A program made the position numbers and the translations under genes. A stretch of 64,000 nt of DNA from the NCBI RefSeq assembly GCF_022846255.1, contig NZ_AP025682.1; one strand, written 5' to 3'. Shown one piece after another: positions 28,974 to 40,700 of this stretch. Numbering within the stretch: position 1 is the stretch's first letter; each line of letters begins with the position of its first letter. The notes beneath the pieces were generated by a model. It saw only the letters and a program-made list of their open reading frames with translations, did not search any database and had not been told where the DNA came from. This DNA comes from Escherichia coli. GTDB taxonomy: Bacteria; Pseudomonadota; Gammaproteobacteria; Enterobacterales; Enterobacteriaceae.

Positions 28974-29783
28974 ATGGCAACAACACAACAATCTGGATTT
29001 GCACCTGCTGCATCGCCTCTCGCTTCGACCATCGTTCAGACTCCGGACGACGCGATTGTGGCGGGCTTCACCTCTATCCCTTCACAAGGGGATAACATGC
29101 CTGCTTACCATGCCAGACCAAAGCAAAGCGATGGCCCACTGCCAGTGGTCATTGTAGTGCAGGAAATTTTTGGCGTGCATGAACATATCCGCGATATTTG
29201 TCGCCGTCTGGCGCTGGAGGGGTATCTGGCTATCGCACCTGAACTTTACTTCCGCGAAGGCGATCCGAATGATTTTGCCGATATCCCTACGCTGCTTAGC
29301 GGTCTGGTAGCAAAAGTGCCTGACTCGCAGGTGCTGGCCGATCTCGATCATGTCGCCAGTTGGGCTTCCCGCAACGGCGGCGATGTTCATCGTTTAATGA
29401 TCACCGGATTCTGCTGGGGTGGACGTATCACCTGGCTGTATGCCGCGCATAATCCACAGCTAAAAGCCGCAGTGGCGTGGTACGGCAAACTGACGGGCGA
29501 CAAGTCGCTGAATTCACCGAAACAACCTGTTGATATCGCAACCGATCTTAACGCGCCGGTTCTCGGCTTATATGGTGGTCAGGATAACAGCATTCCGCAA
29601 GAGAGTGTGGAAACGATGCGCCAGGCGTTGCGGGCAGCAAACGCGAAAGCAGAGATTATCGTGTACCCGGATGCAGGGCATGCGTTCAACGCCGATTATC
29701 GTCCGAGCTATCATGCCGAGTCTGCGAAAGACGGCTGGCAGCGAATGTTGGAATGGTTTACACAGTATGGTGTTAAAAAGTAA
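28974..29783 (+). CDS. dlhH: dienelactone hydrolase family protein (carboxymethylenebutenolidase)
   Basis: Start taken at MATTQQSGFAPAASPLAS (ORF track starts 22 codons upstream); alpha/beta hydrolase with GFCWGG nucleophile elbow. Confidence 0.88.
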   Translation: MATTQQSGFAPAASPLASTIVQTPDDAIVAGFTSIPSQGDNMPAYHARPKQSDGPLPVVIVVQEIFGVHEHIRDICRRLALEGYLAIAPELYFREGDPNDFADIPTLLSGLVAKVPDSQVLADLDHVASWASRNGGDVHRLMITGFCWGGRITWLYAAHNPQLKAAVAWYGKLTGDKSLNSPKQPVDIATDLNAPVLGLYGGQDNSIPQESVETMRQALRAANAKAEIIVYPDAGHAFNADYRPSYHAESAKDGWQRMLEWFTQYGVKK

Positions 29784-29848
29784 CGCCATAGTCGCTAAAT
29801 CTGATGATTAAGCTCACACAATTTCAACGATTTTTTTAATCTCAAAAC

Positions 29849-29945
29849 CATACAGCATCAAAAAATTTGTTGCTGTATGCCACTCTTTGACTCCCTTCAC
29901 ATTCGTCATCACACCACCTGCTGAATGCAAAAATTTCGTTGCTGT
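29849..29945. promoter_or_regulatory. candidate operator/promoter region for the downstream 8-gene module: 9-bp inverted repeat CATACAGCA-N13-TGCTGTATG (29849-29879) and a second copy of AAAAATTT(C)GTTGCTGT (29929-29945)
   Basis: Seen directly in sequence; the two AAAAATTTnGTTGCTGT copies lie about 68 bp apart upstream of the hydrolase ATG at 30040. Confidence 0.45.
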
Positions 29946-30039
29946 GCGGCAAACTTTTTTCCTGTTTTGTGCCGCTTTTCTCCTGAATACTCGTTCTCAG
30001 AACAACTGGATCGTTTAAACATCAGACAGGAGATTTACC

Positions 30040-30708
30040 ATGACGCAATCCATTTTTCAGGCTCAACCCTTTGAATTACCTTTTGATCCGCGCACAACTG
30101 CACTGGTCATGATCGACATGCAGCGTGACTTTGTCGAAGCAGGGGGCTTCGGTGAGGCACTGGGCAATGATGTTTCACTGGTACGCACGGCTATCGCACC
30201 ATGTACAGAGGTGCTGGCAGCCGCACGTCAAAAAGGAATTATGGTTATTCATACTCGTGAAGGCCATCGTGCAGACTTAAGCGACTGCCCGCCAGCCAAA
30301 CTGACGCGCGGCGGAAAAACCTTTATTGGTGAACCAGGACCGATGGGACGCATTCTGGTCAGAGGTGAAGCAGGTCATGACATCATTCCTGAACTGTACC
30401 CGGTGGCAGGCGAACCGGTGATTGATAAGCCTGGCAAAGGCGCGTTTTATCAAACCGACTTACATCTGATTTTGCAAAACCACGGTATCAAGACGCTGAT
30501 AGTTTGTGGTGTTACAACCGAAGTTTGCGTAACCACCACCGTGCGCGAAGCAAATGATCGTGGCTATGAATGCATTATCCCGGAAGATTGTGTCGGCTCC
30601 TATTTCCCGGAATTCCAGAAATACGCCCTCGAGATGATCAAAGCACAAGGTGCCATTTTCGGTTGGGTTACTGATTCCAAAGCCATTATTGCAGGCCTGG
30701 AAGGCTAA
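30040..30708 (+). CDS. isochorismatase-family cysteine hydrolase (RutB / N-carbamoylsarcosine amidase-like amidohydrolase)
   Basis: 222 aa; D-K-C triad context (VMIDMQRDF ... IVCGVTTEVCVTTT) typical of the isochorismatase-like hydrolase fold. Confidence 0.8.
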   Translation: MTQSIFQAQPFELPFDPRTTALVMIDMQRDFVEAGGFGEALGNDVSLVRTAIAPCTEVLAAARQKGIMVIHTREGHRADLSDCPPAKLTRGGKTFIGEPGPMGRILVRGEAGHDIIPELYPVAGEPVIDKPGKGAFYQTDLHLILQNHGIKTLIVCGVTTEVCVTTTVREANDRGYECIIPEDCVGSYFPEFQKYALEMIKAQGAIFGWVTDSKAIIAGLEG

Positions 30709-30713
30709 CACCG

Positions 30714-31574
30714 ATGGTACAGGTTACGCTTTGCGCATCGTCGTTGGGATATCTTTTCCCGCAGAATGAAACGCAAGATTTACGTCTACATAGCGCTTTT
30801 AAACATGCGGTAAATCTGTATTCAGACGCGGGAACATTCATCACTCTGTTGTGTGCGCAAACGTATCTGAATCTCCCTGATGCAGCCAGAGTCTGGCTAC
30901 CTGAATGTTGGGACTGGCGAAGAGAGATTGCCCATTCAGATCCCATTCAGTTAACCCCAGGCTTACTGCGGACACCTCGATTTTGTGTGGCGCTCGAAAA
31001 CGCAACGCTCTGGCAGTCGCCATTTGTGGGGGGAATGCTGACACTTGAGGCATTCCCTTTGGTTTTCCAGCACTACCCAACGATGGCATCGCAACGGCTT
31101 TTATTTTGTCTGGAACATAACGTTCAAAGCACATTGCACCTGCCGGATAGTCTCACGCACCAGGGATTAGCGATTATGGAGCATCCAGATGCGCTGGAAC
31201 GCCAGGTGCCACAACTGATCGGCTTTGGTAAAGGCTTAACGCCCGATGGAGATGACTATTTGTTGGGCTATCTGGCAGCACTCTGGTTATGGCAACTCCC
31301 TGCACCACTTGCCGATCATCAATACCGGTTGCAGCAGGTAATTGATCAACATGCGCACAACACCACGGATATCAGTCGTCATTATCTGGAGCGTGCGCTT
31401 CAGGGACATTTTTCAGAACCGATTTGCCAGTTACTCGCACAACTGGTTGGGAGTGCATCGGCAATGACAATCGCATCCTGTGCAGAACAGGTCATGCAAT
31501 TTGGCGCAACGTCAGGAGTAGATTGCCTTGCAGGAATGCTGCATGGCTTTCGAACCCTGAACACCATGAATTGA
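30714..31574 (+). CDS. hypothetical protein, possibly YlbF/DUF2877-like
   Basis: 286-aa ORF 6 nt after the hydrolase stop; family guess rests on synteny with FdrA-like and DUF1116-like genes, not on motif recognition. Confidence 0.55.
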   Translation: MVQVTLCASSLGYLFPQNETQDLRLHSAFKHAVNLYSDAGTFITLLCAQTYLNLPDAARVWLPECWDWRREIAHSDPIQLTPGLLRTPRFCVALENATLWQSPFVGGMLTLEAFPLVFQHYPTMASQRLLFCLEHNVQSTLHLPDSLTHQGLAIMEHPDALERQVPQLIGFGKGLTPDGDDYLLGYLAALWLWQLPAPLADHQYRLQQVIDQHAHNTTDISRHYLERALQGHFSEPICQLLAQLVGSASAMTIASCAEQVMQFGATSGVDCLAGMLHGFRTLNTMN

Positions 31575-31668
31575 TTTCAACCTTTTCTCCCGTAGCCCGT
31601 TTATGGGGCTACACGGGGATGCTTTGCCCGAATTTTGCTATCGGGCGGAATGAAACAGGCGTAACAGC

Positions 31669-33228
31669 ATGAAAGTTAAATATAAAGTTTTCAGTAATCT
31701 TTATCAGGACTCAGTTTCTCTGATGCAGATTTCCGCGCAAATCAGCAAGTTGCCCGGTATTCAACAGGCCTCGGTCGTCATGGGAACACCCAATAATCTC
31801 GAGCAATTGAGCGATGCGGGTCTGGGTAACGAAATCAACGCCAGTCCCAATGATTTAGTGATTGCAGTCATGGGTGAAGAAGATATTTGCAATGAAGCAC
31901 TGGTACTGGCCCAGCAACGTCTGACCAGCAAACCCGATGATGAAACGGATAGTGGCATTAAAACACCGGAAAAGGTCAGCCTGGAAATGGCACTGGAAGC
32001 CGAGCCCGAAGCCAACCTGGCACTCATTTCTGTACCGGGAGACTACGCCGCCGCCGAAGCAATTAAAGCGTTAAACCTCGGAATGAACGTGATGATGTTC
32101 AGCGATAACGTCAGTATCGTGCAGGAAAAATCCATCAAAACGCTTGCCCGAGAACGTCAGCGCATCGTAATGGGACCTGACTGTGGAACCGCCATTGTTA
32201 ACGGCATTCCGTTAGGCTTCGCTAATGTGGTGAAACGCGGAGCAATTGGTGTTATTGGCGCGTCAGGCACCGGGCTACAGGAAGTGACTTGCCGAATCGA
32301 CCAGCTCGGAGCGGGTATTTCTCAGGCGTTGGGAACAGGCGGACATGATCTCAGTGAAGAGATTGGTGGAATATCGATGCTCTTCGCTTTAGATGCGCTG
32401 GCGCAAGACGATGAAACTCGCGTGATTGTGCTTATTTCAAAACCGCCTTCACCGATCGTTGCCCGGACTATTCTGGAGCGTGCCGAGGCTTGTGGAAAAC
32501 CCGTGGTGGTGAATTTCCTCGGTGCGAATCCGCATGATCTGGCACGTCCCAATATCACCGCGGCCACCACACTTGCCAGCGCCGCAAATATCGCCGTGGC
32601 GTTACTGAATGATCAACCACTTCCGACTATCGAGACCGAAATTTCCTGCGACGATCTCACAATGTTACAAAACGCCTGCCAGCGCCTGCCAGCCCATCGC
32701 CAGGCGATACGCGGTGTTTTCGCCGGAGGAACCTTCTGCTACGAAGCGCAACTTATCTGCCAACAAAAGGGATTCATCGCAGCCTCCAATACGCCAGTTG
32801 CGGGTAATCGTGCTCTGGCAAATATCTGGCAAATCGAAGATCACACGTTGATCGATATGGGCGACGATGATTTCACCCGTGGCAAACCGCATCCAATGAT
32901 CGACCCGACTCTGCGCAATCAACGTCTGCTCAACGAACTCAACGACTCACACACTGCCGTCGTGTTATTCGACCTGGTACTTGGTTATGGCGCTTCCACG
33001 ACGCCTGCCAGCGAATTACTGGACCAACTTTCACACATCGACATGAATAACGCACCGTTGCTGATTGCGCACGTTTGCGGAACGGAAGCTGATCCGCAAA
33101 TACGCAGTCAGCAGATAAGCGCACTACAAAATGCAGGGGTCATCATCGCCAGCAGCAATGCACAGGCGGCGCTATGGGCCAGCACCGTTGCACAGACTCA
33201 GTTGCAGAAAAAGGGGCTAAACGCATGA
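31669..33228 (+). CDS. FdrA-like protein (acyl-CoA synthetase/succinyl-CoA synthetase alpha-like, NAD(P)-binding)
   Basis: 519 aa; shares FQDSVSLM, VMGTP, LALISVPG.YAA, NVMMFSDNV, MGPDCGT, GVIGASGTG, GKPHPMIDPTLRNQ with E. coli FdrA as I recall it. Confidence 0.82.
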   Translation: MKVKYKVFSNLYQDSVSLMQISAQISKLPGIQQASVVMGTPNNLEQLSDAGLGNEINASPNDLVIAVMGEEDICNEALVLAQQRLTSKPDDETDSGIKTPEKVSLEMALEAEPEANLALISVPGDYAAAEAIKALNLGMNVMMFSDNVSIVQEKSIKTLARERQRIVMGPDCGTAIVNGIPLGFANVVKRGAIGVIGASGTGLQEVTCRIDQLGAGISQALGTGGHDLSEEIGGISMLFALDALAQDDETRVIVLISKPPSPIVARTILERAEACGKPVVVNFLGANPHDLARPNITAATTLASAANIAVALLNDQPLPTIETEISCDDLTMLQNACQRLPAHRQAIRGVFAGGTFCYEAQLICQQKGFIAASNTPVAGNRALANIWQIEDHTLIDMGDDDFTRGKPHPMIDPTLRNQRLLNELNDSHTAVVLFDLVLGYGASTTPASELLDQLSHIDMNNAPLLIAHVCGTEADPQIRSQQISALQNAGVIIASSNAQAALWASTVAQTQLQKKGLNA

Positions 33229-34649
33229 ATACCTTATTTAATCAGCCTTTGAAGGTCGTGAACGCGGGACTACACAGTTTTGCTGACAATATTCAACATG
33301 CCGGGGGAAGCGCAATTGCACTCAACTGGCAGCCACCAGCACAAGGCGATATTGACGCTGGATTGGATCTGGCATCGTTGCTACGTCATCCCCTGGTAGA
33401 AAATGCCAACCAAATCGCCATGACACGTTATCTCGAAGCACAGCCCGTGCTGGTGGATGTCATGCTCGCTAAAGAGGCCATTCCAGCAATGGCTGAACAA
33501 AAACGTATTTTGCACTCTGGCCCGCCGATTGCCTGGGAAGAGATGTGTGGTCCGGTAAAAGGGGCGATTATTGGTGCCATGCTGTACGAAGGTTGGGCCA
33601 CCAGCCAGCAAGACGCTGAAAACCAAATAAACGCAGGCGAAATCGACCTTGCCCCTTGTCATCATTATCACGCGGTTGGCCCAATGGCAGGCATCATCAG
33701 CCCGTCGATGCCGTTATGGGTGGTAGAAAACAAAACCAACGGCCATCGTACTTTTAGCAATTTCAATGAAGGGCTGGGTAAGGTTCTCCGTTTTGGCGCC
33801 AATAACGATGAAGTTCTCAATCGTCTGGCCTGGATGCGCGATGAACTGGCGCCGGCAATGAAAGCAGCAATCGCACAACACGGCGAGCTGGAACTCAAGC
33901 CATTAATGGCGCAGGCGCTGCATATGGGGGATGAAGTTCATAACCGCAATGCTGCCGCTACCGGTTTGCTGATTAAGCGCCTGCTCCCGGCATTGCTGGC
34001 CTGCTCTCTTCCACAGGAACATATCCAGCGCGTCGTGGCATTTATCACCGGTAACGATCACTTCTTCCTCAATCTTTCGATGGCCGCCTGTAAAGCAATG
34101 ATGGATGCCGCCGCCAATGTACCGTTCAGTTCAATGGTTACGGTGATGGCGCGTAACGGGGTGAATTTTGGTATTCGGCTTTCCGGTACTGGCGATCGCT
34201 GGTTCCAGGCTCCTGCCAATGCCGTTGAAGGTCTGTTCTTCCCCGGATTTGGCGTCGACGATGCCGCTGCTGACCTGGGTGATAGCGCAATTACTGAAAC
34301 CGCAGGTGTGGGTGGCTTCGCGATGGCGTCATCTCCAGCGATCGTCAAATTTGTGGGAGGCACCCCTGCCGATGCCACCAATAACAGCCGTAGGATGCAA
34401 GCAATCACCCTCGGTGGTAACCCCGCATTTACACTTCCTGCCCTCAATTTTGCCCCCACCGCAGCAGGGATTGATGCGCGTAAAGTGACCGATCGCGGCA
34501 TTTTACCGGTCATCAATACGGGTATCGCCCACAAACAAGCGGGGGTCGGGCAAATTGGTGCCGGGATCACCACTGCGCCGATGGCCTGTTTTGTCGCCGC
34601 TGTACGTGCACTGGCGGAGATCGTCGCAAAGGAGAACCATCATGGTTAA
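33225..34649 (+). CDS. DUF1116-family protein (YlbE-like)
   Basis: Start taken at MNTLFNQPLKVVNAG, whose ATG overlaps the fdrA-like stop (ATGA); ORF track starts 17 codons upstream. Family call by synteny and length. Confidence 0.7.
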   Translation: MNTLFNQPLKVVNAGLHSFADNIQHAGGSAIALNWQPPAQGDIDAGLDLASLLRHPLVENANQIAMTRYLEAQPVLVDVMLAKEAIPAMAEQKRILHSGPPIAWEEMCGPVKGAIIGAMLYEGWATSQQDAENQINAGEIDLAPCHHYHAVGPMAGIISPSMPLWVVENKTNGHRTFSNFNEGLGKVLRFGANNDEVLNRLAWMRDELAPAMKAAIAQHGELELKPLMAQALHMGDEVHNRNAAATGLLIKRLLPALLACSLPQEHIQRVVAFITGNDHFFLNLSMAACKAMMDAAANVPFSSMVTVMARNGVNFGIRLSGTGDRWFQAPANAVEGLFFPGFGVDDAAADLGDSAITETAGVGGFAMASSPAIVKFVGGTPADATNNSRRMQAITLGGNPAFTLPALNFAPTAAGIDARKVTDRGILPVINTGIAHKQAGVGQIGAGITTAPMACFVAAVRALAEIVAKENHHG

Positions 34650-35598
34650 GCCACTGGCTGTCGTCGCGGTTGGCGGCAATGCGCTCATTCAGGACGAGCA
34701 ACGCAATAGTATTCCCGATCAATATGTTGCAGTGATGGAAAGCGTGCAACATATCGTTGATATGGTTGAAGCCGGATGGGACCTGGTACTAACCCACGGT
34801 AATGGCCCGCAGGTGGGCTTTATTCTGCGCCGCTCTGAACTCGCCAGTAACGAAGTTTCTCCGGTTCCACTTGATTACGCCGTGGGTGATACACAAGGTG
34901 CAATTGGCTACATGTTCCAGAAAGCGCTGCATAACGAATTGGCTCGCCGTGGCATAAACAAACCGGTAATTGCCCTGGTGACACAAACGCGAGTCAGCCC
35001 ACATGACGATGCTTTCGCCAGCCCCAGTAAACCAATTGGCGCGTTTCTCGATGAAGCAACGGCCCAACAACGCCAACAACAACTCGGCTGGACGCTGATG
35101 GAGGACGCCGGGCGTGGTTGGCGGCGTACAGTTCCCTCTCCTGCACCACTGGAAATTATTGAGCACGACACCATCGCTCACCTGGTGCGCCAGGGATATC
35201 TGGTTATTGCCTGCGGCGGCGGCGGTATTCCGGTGGTGCGAGACGGGCAACAACTGAAAGGTGTGGAAGCCGTGATCGATAAAGATCTGGCCTCCGCGCT
35301 GCTCGCCAGTCAGTTAGGCGCAGATCTGCTGGTGATCCCCACCGGTGTAGAAAAAGTAGCGATTAACTTTGGTACACCACAACAACAGTGGCTCGACGCT
35401 ATCAGCGTTGCCGAAGCGCAAACGCTGTTGCGGGAAGGTCAGTTTGGTGTCGGCAGTATGCAACCCAAAGTGGAAGCCATTGTTGATTTCATCAATGCCA
35501 GCCAGCAACAAGGCAAACAGGCCAGCGGCCTGATTACTTCACCGCAAACCATAAAAGCAGCCCTGGCGCATCAGAGCGGTACATGGATAACCCTTTAA
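34642..35598 (+). CDS. carbamate kinase-like (amino acid kinase family, YqeA/ArcC-like)
   Basis: Start MVKPLAVVAVGGNALIQDEQRNS with RBS AAGGAGAA; amino-acid-kinase fold motifs (VAVGGNAL, THGNGPQVG, VIACGGGGIPV); overlaps the upstream stop by 8 nt. Confidence 0.82.
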   Translation: MVKPLAVVAVGGNALIQDEQRNSIPDQYVAVMESVQHIVDMVEAGWDLVLTHGNGPQVGFILRRSELASNEVSPVPLDYAVGDTQGAIGYMFQKALHNELARRGINKPVIALVTQTRVSPHDDAFASPSKPIGAFLDEATAQQRQQQLGWTLMEDAGRGWRRTVPSPAPLEIIEHDTIAHLVRQGYLVIACGGGGIPVVRDGQQLKGVEAVIDKDLASALLASQLGADLLVIPTGVEKVAINFGTPQQQWLDAISVAEAQTLLREGQFGVGSMQPKVEAIVDFINASQQQGKQASGLITSPQTIKAALAHQSGTWITL

Positions 35599-35614
35599 TT
35601 CTCTGGAGAACACA

Positions 35615-36004
35615 ATGACTACAACGCTTTTAGCCGTTAACGGAACGCTGATGCGCGGCCTGGAACTCAACCCAAATATGCAAAAAGCGGGCGGTATTTT
35701 TGTCCGTGAAGACCGAACTGACGCCCATTACCGGTTGTGGAGTATTAATGATCGCCATCCGGGAATGATTCGCGTGAATGAAGGAGGAACACACGTCGAC
35801 GTAGAAATTTGGCAATTACCGCTGGCCAGTTTTGCCGCTCTGTTAATGAGCGAACCCGCTGGGCTGGCAATTGGCAAAATCAAACTTGCCGATGGTAGCG
35901 AAGTGCTGGGCGTACTGGCAGAAAACTGGCTGACCGAAGGCCAACGGGAAATTACAGAACTGGGTAGCTGGCGCAAATACACCGGGCATTTTCATACTGT
36001 GTAA
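35615..36004 (+). CDS. small protein, probably gamma-glutamylcyclotransferase-like (AIG2/GGCT fold)
   Basis: 129 aa; family call is tentative, based on size and general resemblance to GGCT-like domains. Confidence 0.5.
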   Translation: MTTTLLAVNGTLMRGLELNPNMQKAGGIFVREDRTDAHYRLWSINDRHPGMIRVNEGGTHVDVEIWQLPLASFAALLMSEPAGLAIGKIKLADGSEVLGVLAENWLTEGQREITELGSWRKYTGHFHTV

Positions 36005-36029
36005 CGCGCATTTATAAAGGGAACATACT

Positions 36030-37253
36030 ATGCGTAAAAAAGAAGAGAATCTGAATACGGCATCAGGATTGCGTATTGCCATGATTTTGCTGGGTATTGC
36101 CGTCACACCTGTGCTGTTGTCATCCTCAAGCCTCGGCAATCAACTTTCCAGCGGCAGTTTAATTAGCGTCGTATTGTTAGGCGGCGTCATTCTGACCTTA
36201 CTTTCAGCCATCACCATTAGCGTGGGAGAAAAAGCCCGCCTGCCAACGTATGGCATTGTGAAATATTCGTTTGGCGAAAAAGGGGCCATCGCCATTAACA
36301 TTTTGATGGCGATAAGTCTGTTCGGCTGGATTGCCGTTACCGCCAATATGTTTGGTCATTCGGTACATGACTTACTGGCTCAACATGGACTGGAAGTTCC
36401 ACTGGCACTGTTAGTGGCGGCTGGCTGTGTCATTTTTGTCGCCTCTACGGCATTTGGCTTTGCCGTTCTGGGAAAAATTGCCCAGGTTGCCGTGCCGGTT
36501 ATCGCGCTGGTGCTGTGTTACATCCTCTATGTGGCAACCCATACCGAAGTGGCAGTACCAGCGGCGATTGTGGAGATGAATACAGGTGTCGCCGTTTCCA
36601 CCGTTGTTGGCACCATTATTGTGCTGGTTGCCACACTGCCTGATTTCGGTAGTTTTGTGCATAACCGCAAACATGCGCTGATTGCCGCAGGCGTGACGTT
36701 TCTGGTTGCCTACCCTCTGCTCTACTGGGCGGGTGCAACGCCGAGCGCCATTAGTGGTCAGGGATCTTTACTGGGTGCGATGGCGGTATTCGGTGCGGTT
36801 CTGCCTGCGGCGCTGTTGTTGATTTTCGCCTGCGTCACCGGTAACGCGGGCAATATGTTCCAGGGCACGCTGGTGGTTTCCACACTGCTTACCCGCTTTC
36901 CCAAATGGCAGATTACCGTGGCGCTGGGTATCCTTTCCGCCATCGTAGGCAGTATGGATATTATGGCGTGGTTTATTCCGTTTCTGCTGTTCCTGGGTAT
37001 CGCCACGCCACCCGTTGCCGGAATTTATATCGCTGACTTTTTCCTTTATCGCCGTAATGGCTATCAAGAGTCAGTGTTAGCCCAGGAGTCACAGATTAAA
37101 GTGCTGACATTCGCAGCATGGATCATAGGCGCAGCGGTTGGCTTTATGACCGTAAAAGGCTTATTCACCCTGACGACGATCCCTTCGGTAGACTCGATTC
37201 TGGTGGCATGTATCGCGTATGCGATTCTCAGTCGGGCAAGTCAACACCGCTAA
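36030..37253 (+). CDS. NCS1-family nucleobase permease (cytosine/purine permease CodB-like)
   Basis: 407-aa, ~12-TM protein with CodB-like length and hydrophobicity pattern. Confidence 0.7.
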   Translation: MRKKEENLNTASGLRIAMILLGIAVTPVLLSSSSLGNQLSSGSLISVVLLGGVILTLLSAITISVGEKARLPTYGIVKYSFGEKGAIAINILMAISLFGWIAVTANMFGHSVHDLLAQHGLEVPLALLVAAGCVIFVASTAFGFAVLGKIAQVAVPVIALVLCYILYVATHTEVAVPAAIVEMNTGVAVSTVVGTIIVLVATLPDFGSFVHNRKHALIAAGVTFLVAYPLLYWAGATPSAISGQGSLLGAMAVFGAVLPAALLLIFACVTGNAGNMFQGTLVVSTLLTRFPKWQITVALGILSAIVGSMDIMAWFIPFLLFLGIATPPVAGIYIADFFLYRRNGYQESVLAQESQIKVLTFAAWIIGAAVGFMTVKGLFTLTTIPSVDSILVACIAYAILSRASQHR

Positions 37254-37330
37254 TTCCTGGGTATACTCAGGCAATGATTACGGCTGAATCTGGAGAGATT
37301 CAGCCACTTTACCACTGACCAGGGAGCCTT

Positions 37331-38227
37331 ATGTTCATCTCAGACGAAACGCTTCGTGTTATTCATCTGGTCGCCAGACACCAGAGCATTACCACCGCAG
37401 CCGAGCAGTTAAATAAAGTCCCTTCCGCCATCAGTTACACCATCAAGAAAGCGGAAGAGAGCCTGGGCGTTGAACTGTTCATTCGTAAGGGACGCTATAT
37501 TGAATTATCGCCAGCGGGAAGTTACTTCATCGAACATAGCAAAACTATTCTTGGCGACCTGGAAGCATTAAAGCGCAACACAGTGCTGATTCACGATGGT
37601 ATTGAGCGTGAACTGACAATAGCGGTAAACAATATTATTCCTGGTGATTTGCTGGTGGCATTTATTCGAGATTTTGAACGGCAATTCACATCAACAACAC
37701 TGACGGTAGATCTTGAGGTATACAACGGCTGCTGGGATGCGCTGTACAGTAAGCGTGCTGATCTGGTCTACGGTGCTCCTCATGCAGTACCAAGCAGTGA
37801 AGGCATCATTAGCGAACCGGTCGGACAAATGGAATGGGATTTTGTCGTCAGCCCACTCCACCCACTGGCAGCGAAGCGGCATCCATTAGAAAACAGTGAA
37901 TTGCGTCATTATCCAGCGGTTTGTATCCGCGATACCTCCGTTAACTTCCCCCCGATGCAAGCCTGGTTGTTGGAAGGACAAAAACCCATTTTTGTTCCTG
38001 ACTTCGCTACGGCAATCGCCTTAATAGAACAAAACGTCGGTATTGGTTATATTCCACATCATCTGGCATTGCCGTTATTGAACAGCGGTAAATTGCTTAA
38101 AAAGCCAATGCGCGAACATAAACACGCCACCAAGTTATTTCTTGCCGCTCGTTCCGATGGTATGGGCAAAGCCTGTCAGTGGTGCATAGAATATTTAAGA
38201 AATCCGCAATTAATTTTCTGTTCCTGA
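37331..38227 (+). CDS. LysR-family transcriptional regulator
   Basis: 298 aa; N-terminal HTH (LRVIHLVARHQSITTAAEQLNKVPSAISYTIKKAEESLGVELFIR). Confidence 0.88.
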   Translation: MFISDETLRVIHLVARHQSITTAAEQLNKVPSAISYTIKKAEESLGVELFIRKGRYIELSPAGSYFIEHSKTILGDLEALKRNTVLIHDGIERELTIAVNNIIPGDLLVAFIRDFERQFTSTTLTVDLEVYNGCWDALYSKRADLVYGAPHAVPSSEGIISEPVGQMEWDFVVSPLHPLAAKRHPLENSELRHYPAVCIRDTSVNFPPMQAWLLEGQKPIFVPDFATAIALIEQNVGIGYIPHHLALPLLNSGKLLKKPMREHKHATKLFLAARSDGMGKACQWCIEYLRNPQLIFCS

Positions 38228-38250
38228 AGATCCACATCATACCTGGCATA

Positions 38251-38284
38251 CATAGCAAAATGGCTTCCGGTGTTGGAAGCCATT
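38251..38284 (-). terminator. rho-independent terminator of metE (hairpin also closes the LysR gene on the other strand)
   Basis: AATGGCTTCC-GGTGTT-GGAAGCCATT 10-bp stem; on the minus strand it is followed by TTTTGCTATG. Confidence 0.7.
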
Positions 38285-38320
38285 ATTGTGCTGCAATTTA
38301 CAATGACTCGTTAATACTCA

Positions 38321-40582
38321 TCATCCCCGACGCAAATTCTGCGCCGCCTGCACCATGTTCGCCAGTGCCGCGCGGGTTTCTGGCCAGCCGCGCGTTTTCA
38401 GGCCACAGTCCGGGTTGACCCACAGACGCTCTGCCGGAATGCGTTTTGCCGCTTTCTTCAGCAAGGCTTCAATCCATTCCACGCTCGGTACGTTTGGCGA
38501 GTGAATGTCATAGACGCCAGGACCGATTTCATTTGGATAATCAAACTCTTCAAACGACTCCAGCAACTCCATGTCGGAACGCGAGGTTTCGATGGTGATG
38601 ACGTCTGCGTCCAGCGCCGCAATCGAATCCATGATGTCGTTGAACTCGCAGTAACACATGTGAGTGTGGATTTGTGTGTCATCTTTCGCCACGGCGGCGT
38701 TGATACGGAAAGCCTCCACGCCCCACTGGAGATAGGCATCCCAGTCGCTGCGACGCAGTGGTAAACCTTCGCGCAATGCCGGTTCGTCAATCTGAATGAT
38801 GCCAATTCCAGCGGCTTCCAGGTCCGCCACTTCATCACGCAGCGCCAGCGCAATTTGTTTGGCGATGGTTTCACGGCTGACATCTTCACGCGGGAACGAC
38901 CAGCAGAGAATAGTCACCGGGCCGGTCAACATCCCTTTCACCGGTTTATCAGTCAGGGATTGCGCATATTTTGCCCACTCCACGGTAATCGGTGCCGGGC
39001 GGCTAACGTCACCAATAACAATCGGTGGCTTCACGCAGCGGGAACCGTAGCTCTGTACCCAACCGTTTTGCGTAAAGACAAAGCCATCCAGATGCTCGCC
39101 AAAGTATTCCACCATGTCATTACGCTCGGCCTCGCCATGTACCAGCACATCCAGTCCCAAACGTTCCTGCTCAACAATGGCCTGCTTGATATGTTCCGCA
39201 ATGCCCGTGCGGTAGTTATTGGCGTCGAGATTACCCTTTTTGAAATCCAGACGCAGGGTACGAATCTCCGTGGTTTGCGGGAAGGAACCAATCGTGGTGG
39301 TCGGCCACGCGGGCAGTTTAAAACGCGCACGCTGGGCTTCAGCACGCACTTCATAGACATTCGCACGCTGACTGTCCTGAGCGGTGATCGCCGCCAGACG
39401 CTTTTCTACTGCCGGATTATGTACACGAGTAGAGTGACGACGCGCCTGAATCGGAGCGCTCCACTCTGCCAGAGCTGCCGTATCACCACTGTTCAGCGTA
39501 TCGCGCAGCAATGCCAGTTCATGACATTTTTGCAGGGCGAAGGCAAACCAGCTTTTCACTTCTGCATCAAGACGCGTTTCCACGCTCAGGTCGATGGGGC
39601 TGTGCAGCAACGAGCAGGAAGATGCCACCCACAAATCGCGTTTGCCGACAATGTCCTTAATTTGCGCATATTTCTCGGTAAGATCGGCGCGCCAGACGTT
39701 ACGACCATTGATAAGACCCGCAGACAGCAGCCAGTCAGAAGGCAGACGCTTGTGCAGTTCAGCAACGTCATCTTTACCATGTACGAGATCGACATGCAGA
39801 CCCTGAACAGGCAGCGCAGTAATCGTGTCGAGGTTTGGCGTTACGCCTTCAAAATAGGTAGTCAGCAGCAGTTTCACCTGCCCCTGCAGAGCATCGTAAG
39901 CGGGTTTGTACGCATCCAGCCACGCCTGCGGCAGTTCCAGAACCAGCGCGGGTTCATCAATCTGTACCCACTCGATGCCGCGTTTTGCCAGTTCTGCCAG
40001 CACTTGCTGATAAACCGGCAGAATGTCGTTCAGCAGGCTCAGGCGATCAAACTGTTCACCTTTCACTTTACCCAGCCACAGGTAGGTAACCGGCCCCAGC
40101 AGCACAGGTTTCACCTTGTGGCCCAGCGCCAGCGCCTCGTCCACTTCCTCCAGCAGCTGCGTCCAGGTCAGTTTGAACTGTTGGCCTTTAACGAACTCCG
40201 GCACCATGTAGTGATAGTTGGTGTTAAACCATTTGGTCATTTCCGCTGCCGCCGCAGGTTCGCCAGTCGGTGCACGTCCACGACCAATACGGAACAGGGT
40301 GTCGATATCTACCGAACCATCTTTGTTCTGGTGACGCGCCGGAACGTTACCCAGCAGCAGGCTGGTGGTCAGGACATGATCGTACCAGGCAAAATCACCC
40401 ACCGGCAGCAGGTCGATACCTGCTTGCTTTTGTTGATCCCAGTGACGAGCACGCAGTTCACGCCCTACCGCCAGCAGTTCTTCACGCGTGGAGTTCCCCG
40501 CCCAATAACTCTCTTGCGCTTTTTTCAGCTCGCGACGCAGGCCAACGCGAGGGAAACCGAGGGTGTGATTAAGAATTGTCAT
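38321..40582 (-). CDS. metE: cobalamin-independent methionine synthase
   Basis: 753-aa [32 protein letters not shown]... Confidence 0.96.
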
Positions 40583-40687
40583 TATATGCCCCTTATGGAA
40601 TTTTTAGTATTTAGCCGTCCAGATGTTTACACATCCATAATTGGCGGTTACTGTATATTCCTCAAGCGCAAATTATTCATGCCGAAG

Positions 40688-40700
40688 TGAAGGACTTTCA
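40688..40700. promoter_or_regulatory. MetR-consensus-like palindrome TGAAGGACTTTCA (TGAA-N5-TTCA) at the metR start
   Basis: Seen in sequence within the metE-metR divergent region; real operator positions not verified. Confidence 0.4.

What the first reader, a model, noticed from the sequence alone, without database searches (positions are those of the whole stretch)
35615..36004. Small GGCT-like protein as an unexpected partner inside the carbamoyl-transfer module
A 129-aa protein with a tentative gamma-glutamylcyclotransferase/AIG2-like fold sits between the carbamate kinase and the permease. GGCT-like domains also occur as C-terminal domains of allophanate hydrolases, so it may act on a ureido-carboxylate intermediate; this would add a step not present in the allantoin-locus paralog set.
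Basis: inference. Interest (0 to 1): 0.35.

Follow-up and report, generated by a model that had tools for sequence, protein, structure and literature searches.

The report
Known GGCT-fold protein in triuret-type operon
The 129-residue protein is real and is already known (E. coli c4763, crystal structure 5C5Z, same fold as the C-terminal domain of allophanate hydrolase), but its gene neighbours indicate an untested role in breaking down triuret, a urate-oxidation product found in urine, rather than urea.

Summary
The ORF at 35615-36004 (+) is a real gene. It matches Pfam AH_C (allophanate hydrolase C-terminal domain) over its full length (E 1.6e-41). It is 100% identical to PDB 5C5Z, "c4763, a uropathogenic E. 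coli-specific protein" (2015). An AF2 model superposes on 5C5Z (TM 0.97), on the K. lactis AH C domain (TM 0.91) and on GGCT/GGACT/YtfP (TM 0.55-0.72).

New here:
- The first gene of the 8-gene island is a TrtA-type triuret hydrolase: 59% identity to Herbaspirillum TrtA, with all catalytic and all six TrtA-versus-BiuH specificity residues.
- c4763 belongs to a distinct "AVNGTLMRG" AH_C subfamily. It lacks the conserved His of true AH C domains and has an invariant Glu80 instead.
- In 80 species loci this subfamily sits next to a TrtA-type hydrolase in 67, either with AllFGH-like genes plus carbamate kinase, or with BiuH and no AllFGH.
- It also occurs fused to BiuH-type domains.

Best reading (about 0.35): it decarboxylates or handles 1-carboxybiuret, the labile TrtA product, as a non-homologous analogue of TrtB. 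Function is untested. The protein is known; the pathway reading is new.

The parts
35615..36004 (+). The finding: stand-alone AH_C / GGCT-fold protein, 129 aa (= c4763, PDB 5C5Z), 'AVNGTLMRG' subfamily
   Evidence: Pfam AH_C E 1.6e-41. 100% identical to 5C5Z. AF2 pLDDT 94.7. Foldseek TM 0.97 to 5C5Z and 0.91 to the KlAH C domain. Subfamily motifs.
30040..30708 (+). TrtA-type isochorismatase-like cysteine hydrolase (predicted triuret hydrolase), first gene of the island
   Evidence: Pfam Isochorismatase; NCBIfam BiuH 279.8 bits, below the 370 cut-off. Best PDB match is TrtA 6XIX, E 8.7e-80. 59% identity with all 15 TrtA active-site and specificity residues conserved, residue roles taken from PMC7948467.
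30714..31574 (+). AllH-like (DUF2877) subunit of an AllFGH-type carbamoyltransferase
   Evidence: Pfam AllH PF11392 E 4.3e-27; RefSeq CDS.
31669..33228 (+). AllF/FdrA-like subunit
   Evidence: NCBIfam FdrA 495.7 bits, above the 433 cut-off; Pfam CoA_binding and Ligase_CoA.
33225..34649 (+). AllG-like (DUF1116) subunit; start overlaps the allF-like stop by 4 nt
   Evidence: Pfam AllG PF06545 E 8.6e-99; RefSeq CDS.
34642..35598 (+). Carbamate kinase
   Evidence: NCBIfam arcC TIGR00746 366.2 bits, above the 358.25 cut-off; RefSeq CDS coordinates transferred from L001.
36030..37253 (+). NCS1-family (CodB-like) permease, presumed substrate importer
   Evidence: Pfam Transp_cyt_pur; NCBIfam cytosine permease below cut-off.
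37331..38227 (+). LysR-type regulator (PunR/AllS-like), last gene of the island before metE
   Evidence: Pfam HTH_1 and LysR_substrate; NCBIfam PunR 286.7 bits and AllS 214.3 bits, both below cut-off.

Best explanation
The 129-aa protein is c4763, a stand-alone member of the allophanate-hydrolase C-terminal-domain (AH_C) family with a GGCT-like fold. It is a fixed component of an 8-gene, horizontally mobile catabolic island whose entry enzyme is a TrtA-type triuret hydrolase.

Proposed pathway (all steps inferred):
1. The NCS1 permease imports triuret.
2. The TrtA-type cysteine hydrolase converts triuret to NH3 plus 1-carboxybiuret, an N-acyl-carbamate with a spontaneous half-life of about 20 min.
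3. c4763 binds the N-carboxyl group and catalyses its controlled decarboxylation to biuret plus CO2. This would make it a non-homologous analogue of TrtB. The chemistry (protonating the carbamate nitrogen) is related to the decarboxylation proposed for the AH C domain, but would use a different acid, probably the subfamily-invariant Glu80 rather than the AH histidine.
4. The AllFGH-like complex phosphorolyses the remaining N-carbamoyl compound to carbamoyl phosphate.
5. Carbamate kinase turns carbamoyl phosphate into ATP, NH3 and CO2.

Shown here: the identity, fold and subfamily of the protein, the TrtA-type residues of the hydrolase, and the conserved co-location and fusions. Inferred: the substrate, the decarboxylase activity, and the substrate of the AllFGH-like enzyme.
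For: Identity and fold.

The hydrolase is TrtA-type. Its best PDB hit is Herbaspirillum TrtA 6XIX. All catalytic, binding and six specificity residues are TrtA-type (F37 N43 A135 E161 Y188 I206), judged against the determinants reported in PMC7948467.

Context across 80 species loci:
- A TrtA/BiuH-family gene lies within 9 kb of the AH_C gene in 68 of 80 loci, and 67 of these carry the TrtA signature FNAEYI.
- The identical operon order is found in Dyella, Psychrobacter and Silvimonas.
- In 7 Verrucomicrobia-type loci the AH_C gene sits with a TrtA-type plus a BiuH-type hydrolase and no AllFGH or carbamate kinase. AH_C therefore follows TrtA, not the carbamoyl-transfer module.

Fusions: AH_C is fused to BiuH-type domains in both orders, and in one case in a triple fusion. 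1-Carboxybiuret-to-biuret is the only step adjacent to both TrtA and BiuH.

Chemistry and constraint:
- Carboxybiuret is labile, and in other bacteria its fate is enzyme-controlled by TrtB or AtzEG.
- TrtB belongs to the AtzH/HpxZ family, so it is not a homologue.
- AH_C is as conserved as AllG and carbamate kinase between E. coli and distant hosts (69-76% identity).
- The subfamily has its own invariant polar residues (N9, N19, N21, H48, E80, K88, Q110, W105).
Against: - No biochemical data exist for this protein or for any member of its subfamily in the literature I could search.
- The conserved His of true AH C domains (KlAH His492, which I recall from Fan et al. 2013 as important for C-domain activity; paper not held) is Leu12 here. 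The decarboxylase chemistry therefore cannot simply be transferred.
- The equivalence of Glu80 to the GGACT catalytic Glu82 is unresolved. An ungapped extension of the local hhalign alignment places them together, but the global alignment shifts them by two residues.
- Even for AtzF, the C domain is dispensable for activity in vitro and may instead organise oligomers.
- If biuret is the product, the AllFGH-like enzyme would have to phosphorolyse biuret to urea. That is a dead end in urease-negative E. coli and wastes half the nitrogen.
- In comammox and AOA genomes, allFGHK co-occurs with biuH. That fits allophanate or carboxybiuret as the AllFGH substrate equally well.
Confidence: 0.35

Rival explanations
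1. Allophanate-directed enzyme. The AllFGH-like complex phosphorolyses 1-carboxybiuret (an oxalurate look-alike) to carbamoyl phosphate plus allophanate. In the TrtA+BiuH clusters, BiuH makes the allophanate instead. c4763 then decarboxylates or removes the allophanate (to urea plus CO2), pulling the unfavourable phosphorolysis forward.
For: AH_C is the last enzyme gene in both cluster types, THFGK-C and TT-C. It is fused to BiuH-type domains, whose product is allophanate. The family name-giver acts in allophanate breakdown. One variant operon carries a urea-transporter-family gene (L006).
Against: This does not explain why the subfamily tracks TrtA-type rather than BiuH-type hydrolases in 67 of 80 loci. 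Making urea gives urease-negative E. coli no nitrogen. Allophanate decarboxylates spontaneously to urea in any case.
Confidence: 0.2
2. Same job as the AH C domain: decarboxylation of N-carboxycarbamate (dicarboxyammonia) to carbamate. The amide hydrolysis of allophanate would be supplied by the cysteine hydrolase instead of an amidase-signature domain, making a 'split, fold-swapped allophanate hydrolase'.
For: Full-length AH_C match and TM 0.91 to the KlAH C domain. In other genomes, stand-alone AH_C genes lie next to amidase-signature genes (L007). The pairing of hydrolase with AH_C parallels the pairing of AH N and C domains (PMC5770610).
Against: The c4763 subfamily replaces the AH-specific 'GAH' motif with 'GTL', and differs at other AH-conserved positions (C102 to A, F100 to V, P83 to G) in 100% of close members. 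The partner hydrolase has the ultraspecific TrtA residue set, and TrtA shows 10^4-fold discrimination even against biuret.
Confidence: 0.1
3. Non-catalytic subunit: an oligomerisation, scaffolding or channelling partner. It would hold the labile N-carboxy intermediate, or dock the TrtA-type hydrolase to the AllFGH-like and carbamate kinase machinery.
For: The AtzF C domain is dispensable for activity and affects oligomeric state. The AH catalytic His is lost. Fusions occur with several different partners: carbamate kinase, BiuH-type domains, Cupin_7, DUF3810 and a flavodoxin-like domain. Conservation is high, comparable to that of complex subunits.
Against: Glu64, Glu80, Glu103, Tyr39, Arg40 and Arg120 are invariant, and there is a GGCT-like 'GTLxRG' loop; both look like an active site. 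The protein also occurs in clusters without AllFGH or carbamate kinase.
Confidence: 0.15
4. Published suggestions: (a) c4763 takes part in urea utilisation as an allophanate hydrolase homologue; (b) the island (GR29 of BEN2908) is a pyrimidine (Rut-like) degradation module.
For: (a) Structural similarity to the AH C domain, and the claim repeated in PMC7558591. (b) RutB-like and CodB-like annotations in PMC12928451.
Against: (a) The island encodes neither a urea carboxylase nor an amidase-signature domain. (b) The hydrolase scores 270.6 bits to TrtA against 104.8 bits to RutB, and carries the TrtA specificity residues. No RutA or RutC-G homologues are in the island.
Confidence: 0.05

Closest known systems
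c4763 of uropathogenic E. coli CFT073 (PDB 5C5Z; Kim et al. 2015, Acta Cryst F 71:1042)
   Same: The same protein: 129 of 129 residues identical, and the model superposes at 0.5 A rmsd.
   Different: Nothing in sequence. The published label 'UPEC-specific' does not hold: the island is in 1554 of 5426 complete E. coli genomes, including bovine, chicken and wastewater isolates, and on conjugative plasmids. The published functional suggestion (urea utilisation) does not fit the gene content.
C-terminal domain of allophanate hydrolase (K. lactis AH 4ISS, G. bethesdensis AH 4GYR, AtzF; Pfam PF21986)
   Same: Same Pfam family and fold (TM 0.91). Shared invariant core: G10, G15, L18, T35, Y39, R40, P49, G58, E64, W66, P81, L84, G87, G99, E103, W119, R120, Y122. 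Both are paired with an amide hydrolase that makes an N-carboxy product.
   Different: c4763 is stand-alone, not fused to an amidase-signature domain. It has motif 'AVNGTLMRG' instead of 'AVVGAHLxG' (KlAH His492 corresponds to Leu12), Glu80 instead of Ile/Val, and further subfamily-specific residues. Its partner is a cysteine hydrolase of the isochorismatase fold.
GGCT-fold enzymes (GGACT 3JUB, GGCT 2RBH, YtfP, ChaC)
   Same: Same fold (TM 0.52-0.72). The N-terminal loop 'NGTLMRG' aligns with the GGACT 'YGTLKRG'. A conserved Glu (E80) lies at or within two residues of the GGACT catalytic Glu82 position.
   Different: Sequence similarity is below the Pfam GGACT cut-off. No gamma-glutamyl substrate is suggested by the context. 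The first residue of the motif is Asn, not Tyr.
TrtB carboxybiuret decarboxylase (Herbaspirillum) and AtzH (AtzH/HpxZ family; NTF2-like fold as solved for AtzH)
   Same: Proposed same metabolic slot: removing the N-carboxyl group from the labile product of ring-opening or terminal hydrolysis.
   Different: Unrelated family and fold. No NCBIfam or Pfam hit connects them. Activity is demonstrated for TrtB but not for c4763.
allFGH-allK oxalurate branch of E. coli K-12 allantoin catabolism (PMC11326118, PMC9843812)
   Same: The same three-subunit carbamoyltransferase families plus a catabolic carbamate kinase.
   Different: This is a paralogous set: about 40% identity to FdrA and about 46% to YahG according to PMC12928451. 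It is preceded by a TrtA-type hydrolase and includes AH_C and an NCS1 permease. The K-12 operon as described has no AH_C gene.

Membership tests
Pfam AH_C (PF21986), allophanate hydrolase C-terminal domain | Profile match above the gathering threshold over the whole domain | tested here: met
   141.6 bits against a cut-off of 27; residues 5-123 match profile positions 2-122 of 123.
Pfam AH_C (PF21986), allophanate hydrolase C-terminal domain | Same 3-D fold as a solved AH C domain | tested here: met
   Foldseek against 4ISS, 4IST and 5I8I: TM 0.89-0.91, E 1e-12 to 1e-13.
Allophanate hydrolase (EC 3.5.1.54) proper | N-terminal amidase-signature domain fused to the C domain | tested here: not met
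   The protein has 129 aa and a single domain. NCBIfam AH models are matched only at their C-terminal 120 positions and far below cut-off (99-105 bits against 487-511). No amidase-signature gene is in the island.
Allophanate hydrolase (EC 3.5.1.54) proper | Conserved His in the 'VVGAHL' motif (KlAH His492; its functional importance is recalled from Fan et al. 2013, paper not held) | tested here: not met
   This position is Leu12 in c4763 and Leu in 111 of 111 close stand-alone homologues; His is present in 12 of 13 full-length AHs.
GGCT / AIG2-like (Pfam GGACT PF06094) | Profile match above the gathering threshold | tested here: not met
   20.0 bits against a cut-off of 22.8, E 0.0011.
GGCT / AIG2-like (Pfam GGACT PF06094) | GGCT fold | tested here: met
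   Foldseek probability 1.00 to 3JUB, 3JUD, 1VKB, 2RBH, 3CRY, 1XHS and 6KY1; TM 0.52-0.72.
GGCT / AIG2-like (Pfam GGACT PF06094) | Y-G-(S/T)-L loop and catalytic Glu (GGACT Glu82) | tested here: inconclusive
   The loop is N-G-T-L and aligns with the GGACT YGTL. Glu80 coincides with Glu82 only in the ungapped extension; the global hhalign alignment offsets it by 2 residues.
TrtB/AtzH/HpxZ decarboxylases | Homology to the AtzH/TrtB family | tested here: not met
   TrtB groups with AtzH and HpxZ. c4763 hits only AH_C and GGACT and has a GGCT fold. At most it is a functional analogue.
TrtA triuret hydrolase (the partner gene at 30040-30708) | Catalytic triad D/K/C, binding residues, and the six TrtA-versus-BiuH consensus positions | tested here: met
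   D26, K130, C163, F31, E74, K133 and Q203, plus F37, N43, A135, E161, Y188 and I206, are all TrtA-type, judged against the determinants in PMC7948467.
TrtA triuret hydrolase (the partner gene at 30040-30708) | Triuret hydrolase activity with discrimination against biuret | not testable with these tools
   Needs an enzyme assay.
AllFGH oxamic transcarbamylase (neighbouring genes) | Three subunits of the FdrA, DUF1116 and DUF2877 families with an adjacent carbamate kinase | tested here: met
   Pfam AllH and AllG; NCBIfam FdrA and arcC above cut-off.
AllFGH oxamic transcarbamylase (neighbouring genes) | Oxalurate as substrate | not testable with these tools
   This is a paralogous set in a different context; the substrate is unknown.

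The most novel reading that the evidence does not exclude
About 29% of complete E. coli genomes, and a set of conjugative plasmids, carry a complete and so far unrecognised triuret catabolic operon. In it, a TrtA-type hydrolase, a GGCT-fold N-carboxy-ureide decarboxylase (c4763, a new catalytic subfamily of AH_C that uses Glu instead of His) and an AllFGH-type phosphorolytic carbamoyltransferase with carbamate kinase would convert a urate-oxidation product present in urine into ammonia and ATP. This would be a third fate for 1-carboxybiuret or biuret (phosphorolysis), besides the known decarboxylase/BiuH and AtzEG routes.
Probability: 0.3. Interest if true: 0.7.

Novelty: new variant of a known kind. 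Interest (0 to 1): 0.45.

Why it matters
The protein itself is not new. Its structure was solved in 2015 and databases already call it allophanate hydrolase-related. What remains open is what it and its island do.

If the reading proposed here holds, it would do four things:
- Assign a function to a widespread accessory island of extra-intestinal and commensal E. coli that has been listed as 'uropathogen-specific' for years.
- Link that island to triuret, a peroxynitrite oxidation product of urate detected in human urine.
- Define a catalytic AH_C subfamily distinct from the allophanate hydrolase C domain.
- Give the recently discovered AllFGH carbamoyltransferase family a second substrate class. 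This would explain why biuH/trtA and allFGHK genes are repeatedly found together in nitrifier genomes.

All of this can be tested directly with purified proteins and growth assays.

Tried and rejected
- A single-sequence AF2 model was useless (pLDDT 43). It was replaced by an alignment-based model.
- The papers that would settle the AH C-domain mechanism and the c4763 structural details are not held: Fan et al. 2013 JBC, Balotra et al. 2015, Kim et al. 2015 and Aukema et al. 2020. The role of His492 therefore rests on my memory. Only its position was verified, via native numbering of 5I8I.
- Literature searches for c4763, neighbouring locus tags, triuret with E. coli, and DUF1116/DUF2877 with biuret found no functional study of this island.
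- fdrA and ylbE in the UTI transcriptome paper refer to the K-12 all locus, not to this island.
- The idea that TrtB might be an AH_C homologue was rejected: it belongs to the AtzH/HpxZ family.
- Two fusion proteins (P0132, P0136) could not be traced to contigs, so they could not be checked against gene-calling artefacts.
- The carbamate kinase-AH_C fusion rests on one metagenomic contig.
- Promoter and terminator scans of 29700-38400 gave fewer or no more hits than shuffled sequence, and are uninformative.
- A greedy ORF caller produced some wrong-frame ORFs in GC-rich loci. Positions from tblastn were used instead.
- A global profile alignment to GGACT did not settle whether Glu80 equals the GGACT Glu82.

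Full report
**1. Observation.**

The window is an E. coli chromosome segment (udp, ysgA, metE, metR, yigL, pldB). Between ysgA and metE lies an 8-gene, same-strand island (30040-38227).

The finding's ORF (35615-36004, +, ATG, 129 codons, GGAG 8 nt upstream) is the sixth gene. It lies 16 nt after a carbamate kinase gene and 25 nt before an NCS1 permease gene. RefSeq annotates it as 'allophanate hydrolase-related protein'.

**2. What the protein is.**

- Pfam AH_C (PF21986, allophanate hydrolase C-terminal domain) matches residues 5-123 at E 1.6e-41. The GGACT/AIG2 model scores just below its cut-off.
- NCBIfam allophanate hydrolase models match only with their last ~120 positions.
- The sequence is 100% identical to PDB 5C5Z. 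The PDB title of that entry is 'Crystal structure analysis of c4763, a uropathogenic E. coli-specific protein', released 2015. The paper is cited in PMC7558591, but the paper itself is not held.
- An alignment-based AF2 model (pLDDT 94.7) superposes on 5C5Z (TM 0.97, 0.5 A). It also superposes on the C domain of K. lactis allophanate hydrolase/urea amidolyase (TM ~0.9), and on GGACT, GGCT, AIG2-like, YtfP and ChaC2 (TM 0.52-0.72).

**3. It is not just a detached AH C domain.**

I aligned 199 full-coverage domains. A core is shared by all groups: G10, G15, L18, T35, Y39, R40, P49, G58, E64, W66, P81, L84, G87, G99, E103, W119, R120, Y122.

Beyond that core there are two subfamilies:

| Feature | True AH C domains | c4763 subfamily |
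|---|---|---|
| N-terminal motif | 'AVVGAHLxG' (His in 12/13) | 'AVNGTLMRG' (122 of 132 stand-alone proteins; all non-AH fusions examined carry it or a close variant) |
| Position 80 | Ile/Val | Glu (99%) |
| Other subfamily-invariant residues | — | N9, N19, N21, W42, H48, K88, W105, Q110 |

The AH histidine is KlAH His492. I confirmed the numbering through the native-numbered 5I8I alignment. Its functional importance I recall from Fan et al. 2013, which is not held. The equivalent residue in c4763 is Leu12.

The 'NGTLMRG' loop aligns with the 'YGTLKRG' substrate-binding loop of GGACT (hhalign; GGACT sequence verified). Continuing that alignment without gaps puts Glu80 ('LLMSE') on the GGACT catalytic Glu82 ('LDDFE'; the E82Q mutant is 3JUD). 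A forced global alignment shifts this by two residues, so the equivalence is probable but unresolved.

**4. The neighbours.**

The first gene (30040-30708) is an isochorismatase-like cysteine hydrolase.

- Its best solved relative is Herbaspirillum TrtA (6XIX, E 8.7e-80), ahead of BiuH (6AZO, 6XJM) and far ahead of RutB.
- Using the determinants reported for TrtA (PMC7948467), every one is conserved. This covers the catalytic triad, the binding residues and the cis-peptide pair.
- All six positions where TrtA and BiuH consensus differ are also TrtA-type (F37, N43, A135, E161, Y188, I206; 59% identity overall).
- TrtA hydrolyses triuret to NH3 plus 1-carboxybiuret, which decays to biuret with a half-life of about 20 min. 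In other bacteria carboxybiuret is taken by the decarboxylase TrtB or the deaminase AtzEG.

Genes 2-4 are AllH-, AllF- and AllG-like, and gene 5 is a carbamate kinase. They are paralogues of the E. coli K-12 oxamic transcarbamylase AllFGH and AllK. Those enzymes cleave oxalurate with phosphate to carbamoyl phosphate and then make ATP (PMC11326118).

Genes 7-8 are an NCS1 permease and a PunR/AllS-like LysR regulator.

**5. Conservation of the association.**

Close homologues (66-90% identity) occur in Enterobacterales, Caballeronia/Paraburkholderia, Silvimonas, Photobacterium, Psychrobacter and Dyella. The identical gene order is found in Dyella, Psychrobacter and Silvimonas. Between E. coli and these hosts AH_C is 69-76% identical, which is similar to AllG (74-80%) and carbamate kinase (61-73%).

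A scan of one genome per species found 452 relatives. I analysed the best 80 loci.

| Neighbour within 9 kb of AH_C | Loci (of 80) |
|---|---|
| TrtA/BiuH-family gene | 68 |
| AllG | 64 |
| Carbamate kinase | 64 |
| AllF | 62 |

In 67 loci the hydrolase has the TrtA signature FNAEYI.

Seven Verrucomicrobia-type loci have a TrtA-type hydrolase, a BiuH-type hydrolase (signature YYSDTV) and AH_C. They also carry a conserved, unannotated ~530-aa membrane protein or an ABC transporter, but no AllFGH or carbamate kinase. AH_C therefore follows the TrtA-type hydrolase, not the carbamoyl-transfer module.

A search of 1.84 billion representatives found Rosetta-stone fusions:
- AH_C+BiuH-type (P0136);
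- BiuH-type+AH_C (P0132);
- AH_C+BiuH-type+degenerate TrtA-like (P0202);
- carbamate kinase+AH_C (P0125).

P0125 lies on a contig with hydrolase-AllF-AllG-[CK+AH_C]-urea-transporter-family genes.

More distant stand-alone members sit next to an amidase-signature gene (a split AH) or are translationally coupled to an ADI/DDAH-like enzyme. The family is therefore generally paired with C-N hydrolases.

**6. Mechanism.**

The one reaction adjacent to both TrtA (universal neighbour) and BiuH (fusion partner) is 1-carboxybiuret to biuret plus CO2.

I propose that c4763 binds the N-carboxyl group and catalyses this decarboxylation. The binding site would be the GGCT-type loop plus Y39/R40/R120, with Glu80 (or Glu64) as general acid to protonate the carbamate nitrogen. 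That would make it a non-homologous analogue of TrtB, which belongs to the AtzH/HpxZ family. The AllFGH-like enzyme would then phosphorolyse the remaining N-carbamoyl compound, and carbamate kinase would harvest ATP.

Confidence is about 0.35. The rivals are:
- action on allophanate after an AllFGH-catalysed cleavage of carboxybiuret (0.2);
- the canonical AH C-domain reaction on N-carboxycarbamate (0.1);
- a non-catalytic scaffold or channelling role, as suggested for the AtzF C domain, which is dispensable for activity (0.15);
- the published urea or pyrimidine suggestions (0.05), which the gene content contradicts.

Everything about substrates is inference. No assay data exist in the searchable literature.

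**7. Comparison and novelty.**

The protein, its fold and its resemblance to the AH C domain are already known. Four things are not in the literature I could search:
- the TrtA-type identity of the partner hydrolase in E. coli;
- the split of AH_C into an AH-type (His) subfamily and a c4763-type (Glu80, NGTL) subfamily;
- the cross-phylum TrtA/AH_C association and the BiuH fusions;
- the reading of the island as a single triuret pathway with a phosphorolytic, ATP-yielding end.

A 2025 study of nitrifier genomes noticed biuH/trtA next to allFGHK and codB but interpreted them as two adjacent pathways.

The island is not UPEC-specific. It is in 1554 of 5426 complete E. coli genomes from humans, cattle, chickens and wastewater, and on 82 conjugative plasmids at ~95% identity.

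**8. Verdict.**

The residual interest lies in the unexplored function. I rate interest at 0.45. The system is a new variant of known kinds (triuret/biuret catabolism, the AllFGH carbamoyl-transfer module, and the AH_C/GGCT fold).

Noticed in passing
window 30040-37253; plasmid hits H13-H22: The whole operon also occurs at ~95% identity on 82 conjugative plasmids (78 Escherichia, 4 Klebsiella; 140-207 kb among the ten listed), separate from the >=99% chromosomal copies. Some genomes have up to 3 copies.
   Followed up: partly
L066:7225-8814 and L076:7984-9612: In the TrtA+BiuH+AH_C clusters of Verrucomicrobia MAGs there is a conserved ~530-aa polytopic membrane protein (79% identical between two MAGs). 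It has no Pfam or NCBIfam hit, and is presumably a new transporter family for triuret- or biuret-like compounds.
   Followed up: partly
P0202 (644 aa, metagenomic protein): Triple fusion of AH_C, a BiuH-type domain and a TrtA-like domain. In the TrtA-like domain the catalytic Asp is Asn and the catalytic Cys position is Gly (with a Cys one residue later), so it may be a degenerate or pseudo-enzyme domain.
   Followed up: partly
L006 (metagenome contig, 9662 bp): A variant operon with a carbamate kinase-AH_C fusion protein (458 aa), no detectable AllH gene, and a urea-transporter-family (PF03253) gene in place of the NCS1 permease.
   Followed up: no
L008:4530-6114 and L009:2843-4427: A distant stand-alone AH_C (38% identity) overlaps by 17 nt with a 401-aa ADI/DDAH-like (PF02274) enzyme gene. 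This suggests AH_C also partners with guanidino-group-modifying hydrolases.
   Followed up: no
L007:9001-10880: A stand-alone AH_C (motif AVNGGLMRG) lies immediately upstream of a 484-aa amidase-signature gene. This looks like a split allophanate-hydrolase-like pair in reversed domain order.
   Followed up: no
L088 and L089: MAGs labelled Gemmatimonadota and Trueperaceae share the same gene spacing and ORF lengths around AH_C (ORF layout). In L088, where Pfam was run, these are E1 dehydrogenase subunits, an SDR, an M20 peptidase and a gamma-glutamyltranspeptidase, followed by AH_C. The shared layout suggests either recent transfer or a binning error.
   Followed up: no
L079:1270-2202 and P0128: Cupin_7 (ChrR-like)+AH_C fusion proteins, found in a Verrucomicrobia MAG next to a BiuH-type hydrolase.
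   Followed up: no
Literature (PMC7558591, PMC12928451): [quoted passage not shown] As far as I recall (the paper is not held), the original structure paper only suggested this. A 2026 genome paper reads the island as pyrimidine degradation. Neither fits the TrtA-type residues.
   Followed up: partly
window 38855-40690 (+) and 33174-34649 (+): The mechanical ORF list contains a 611-aa ORF antisense to metE, which is almost certainly spurious. It also gives a 491-aa version of the AllG-like ORF that starts 51 nt upstream of the annotated start at 33225.
   Followed up: no
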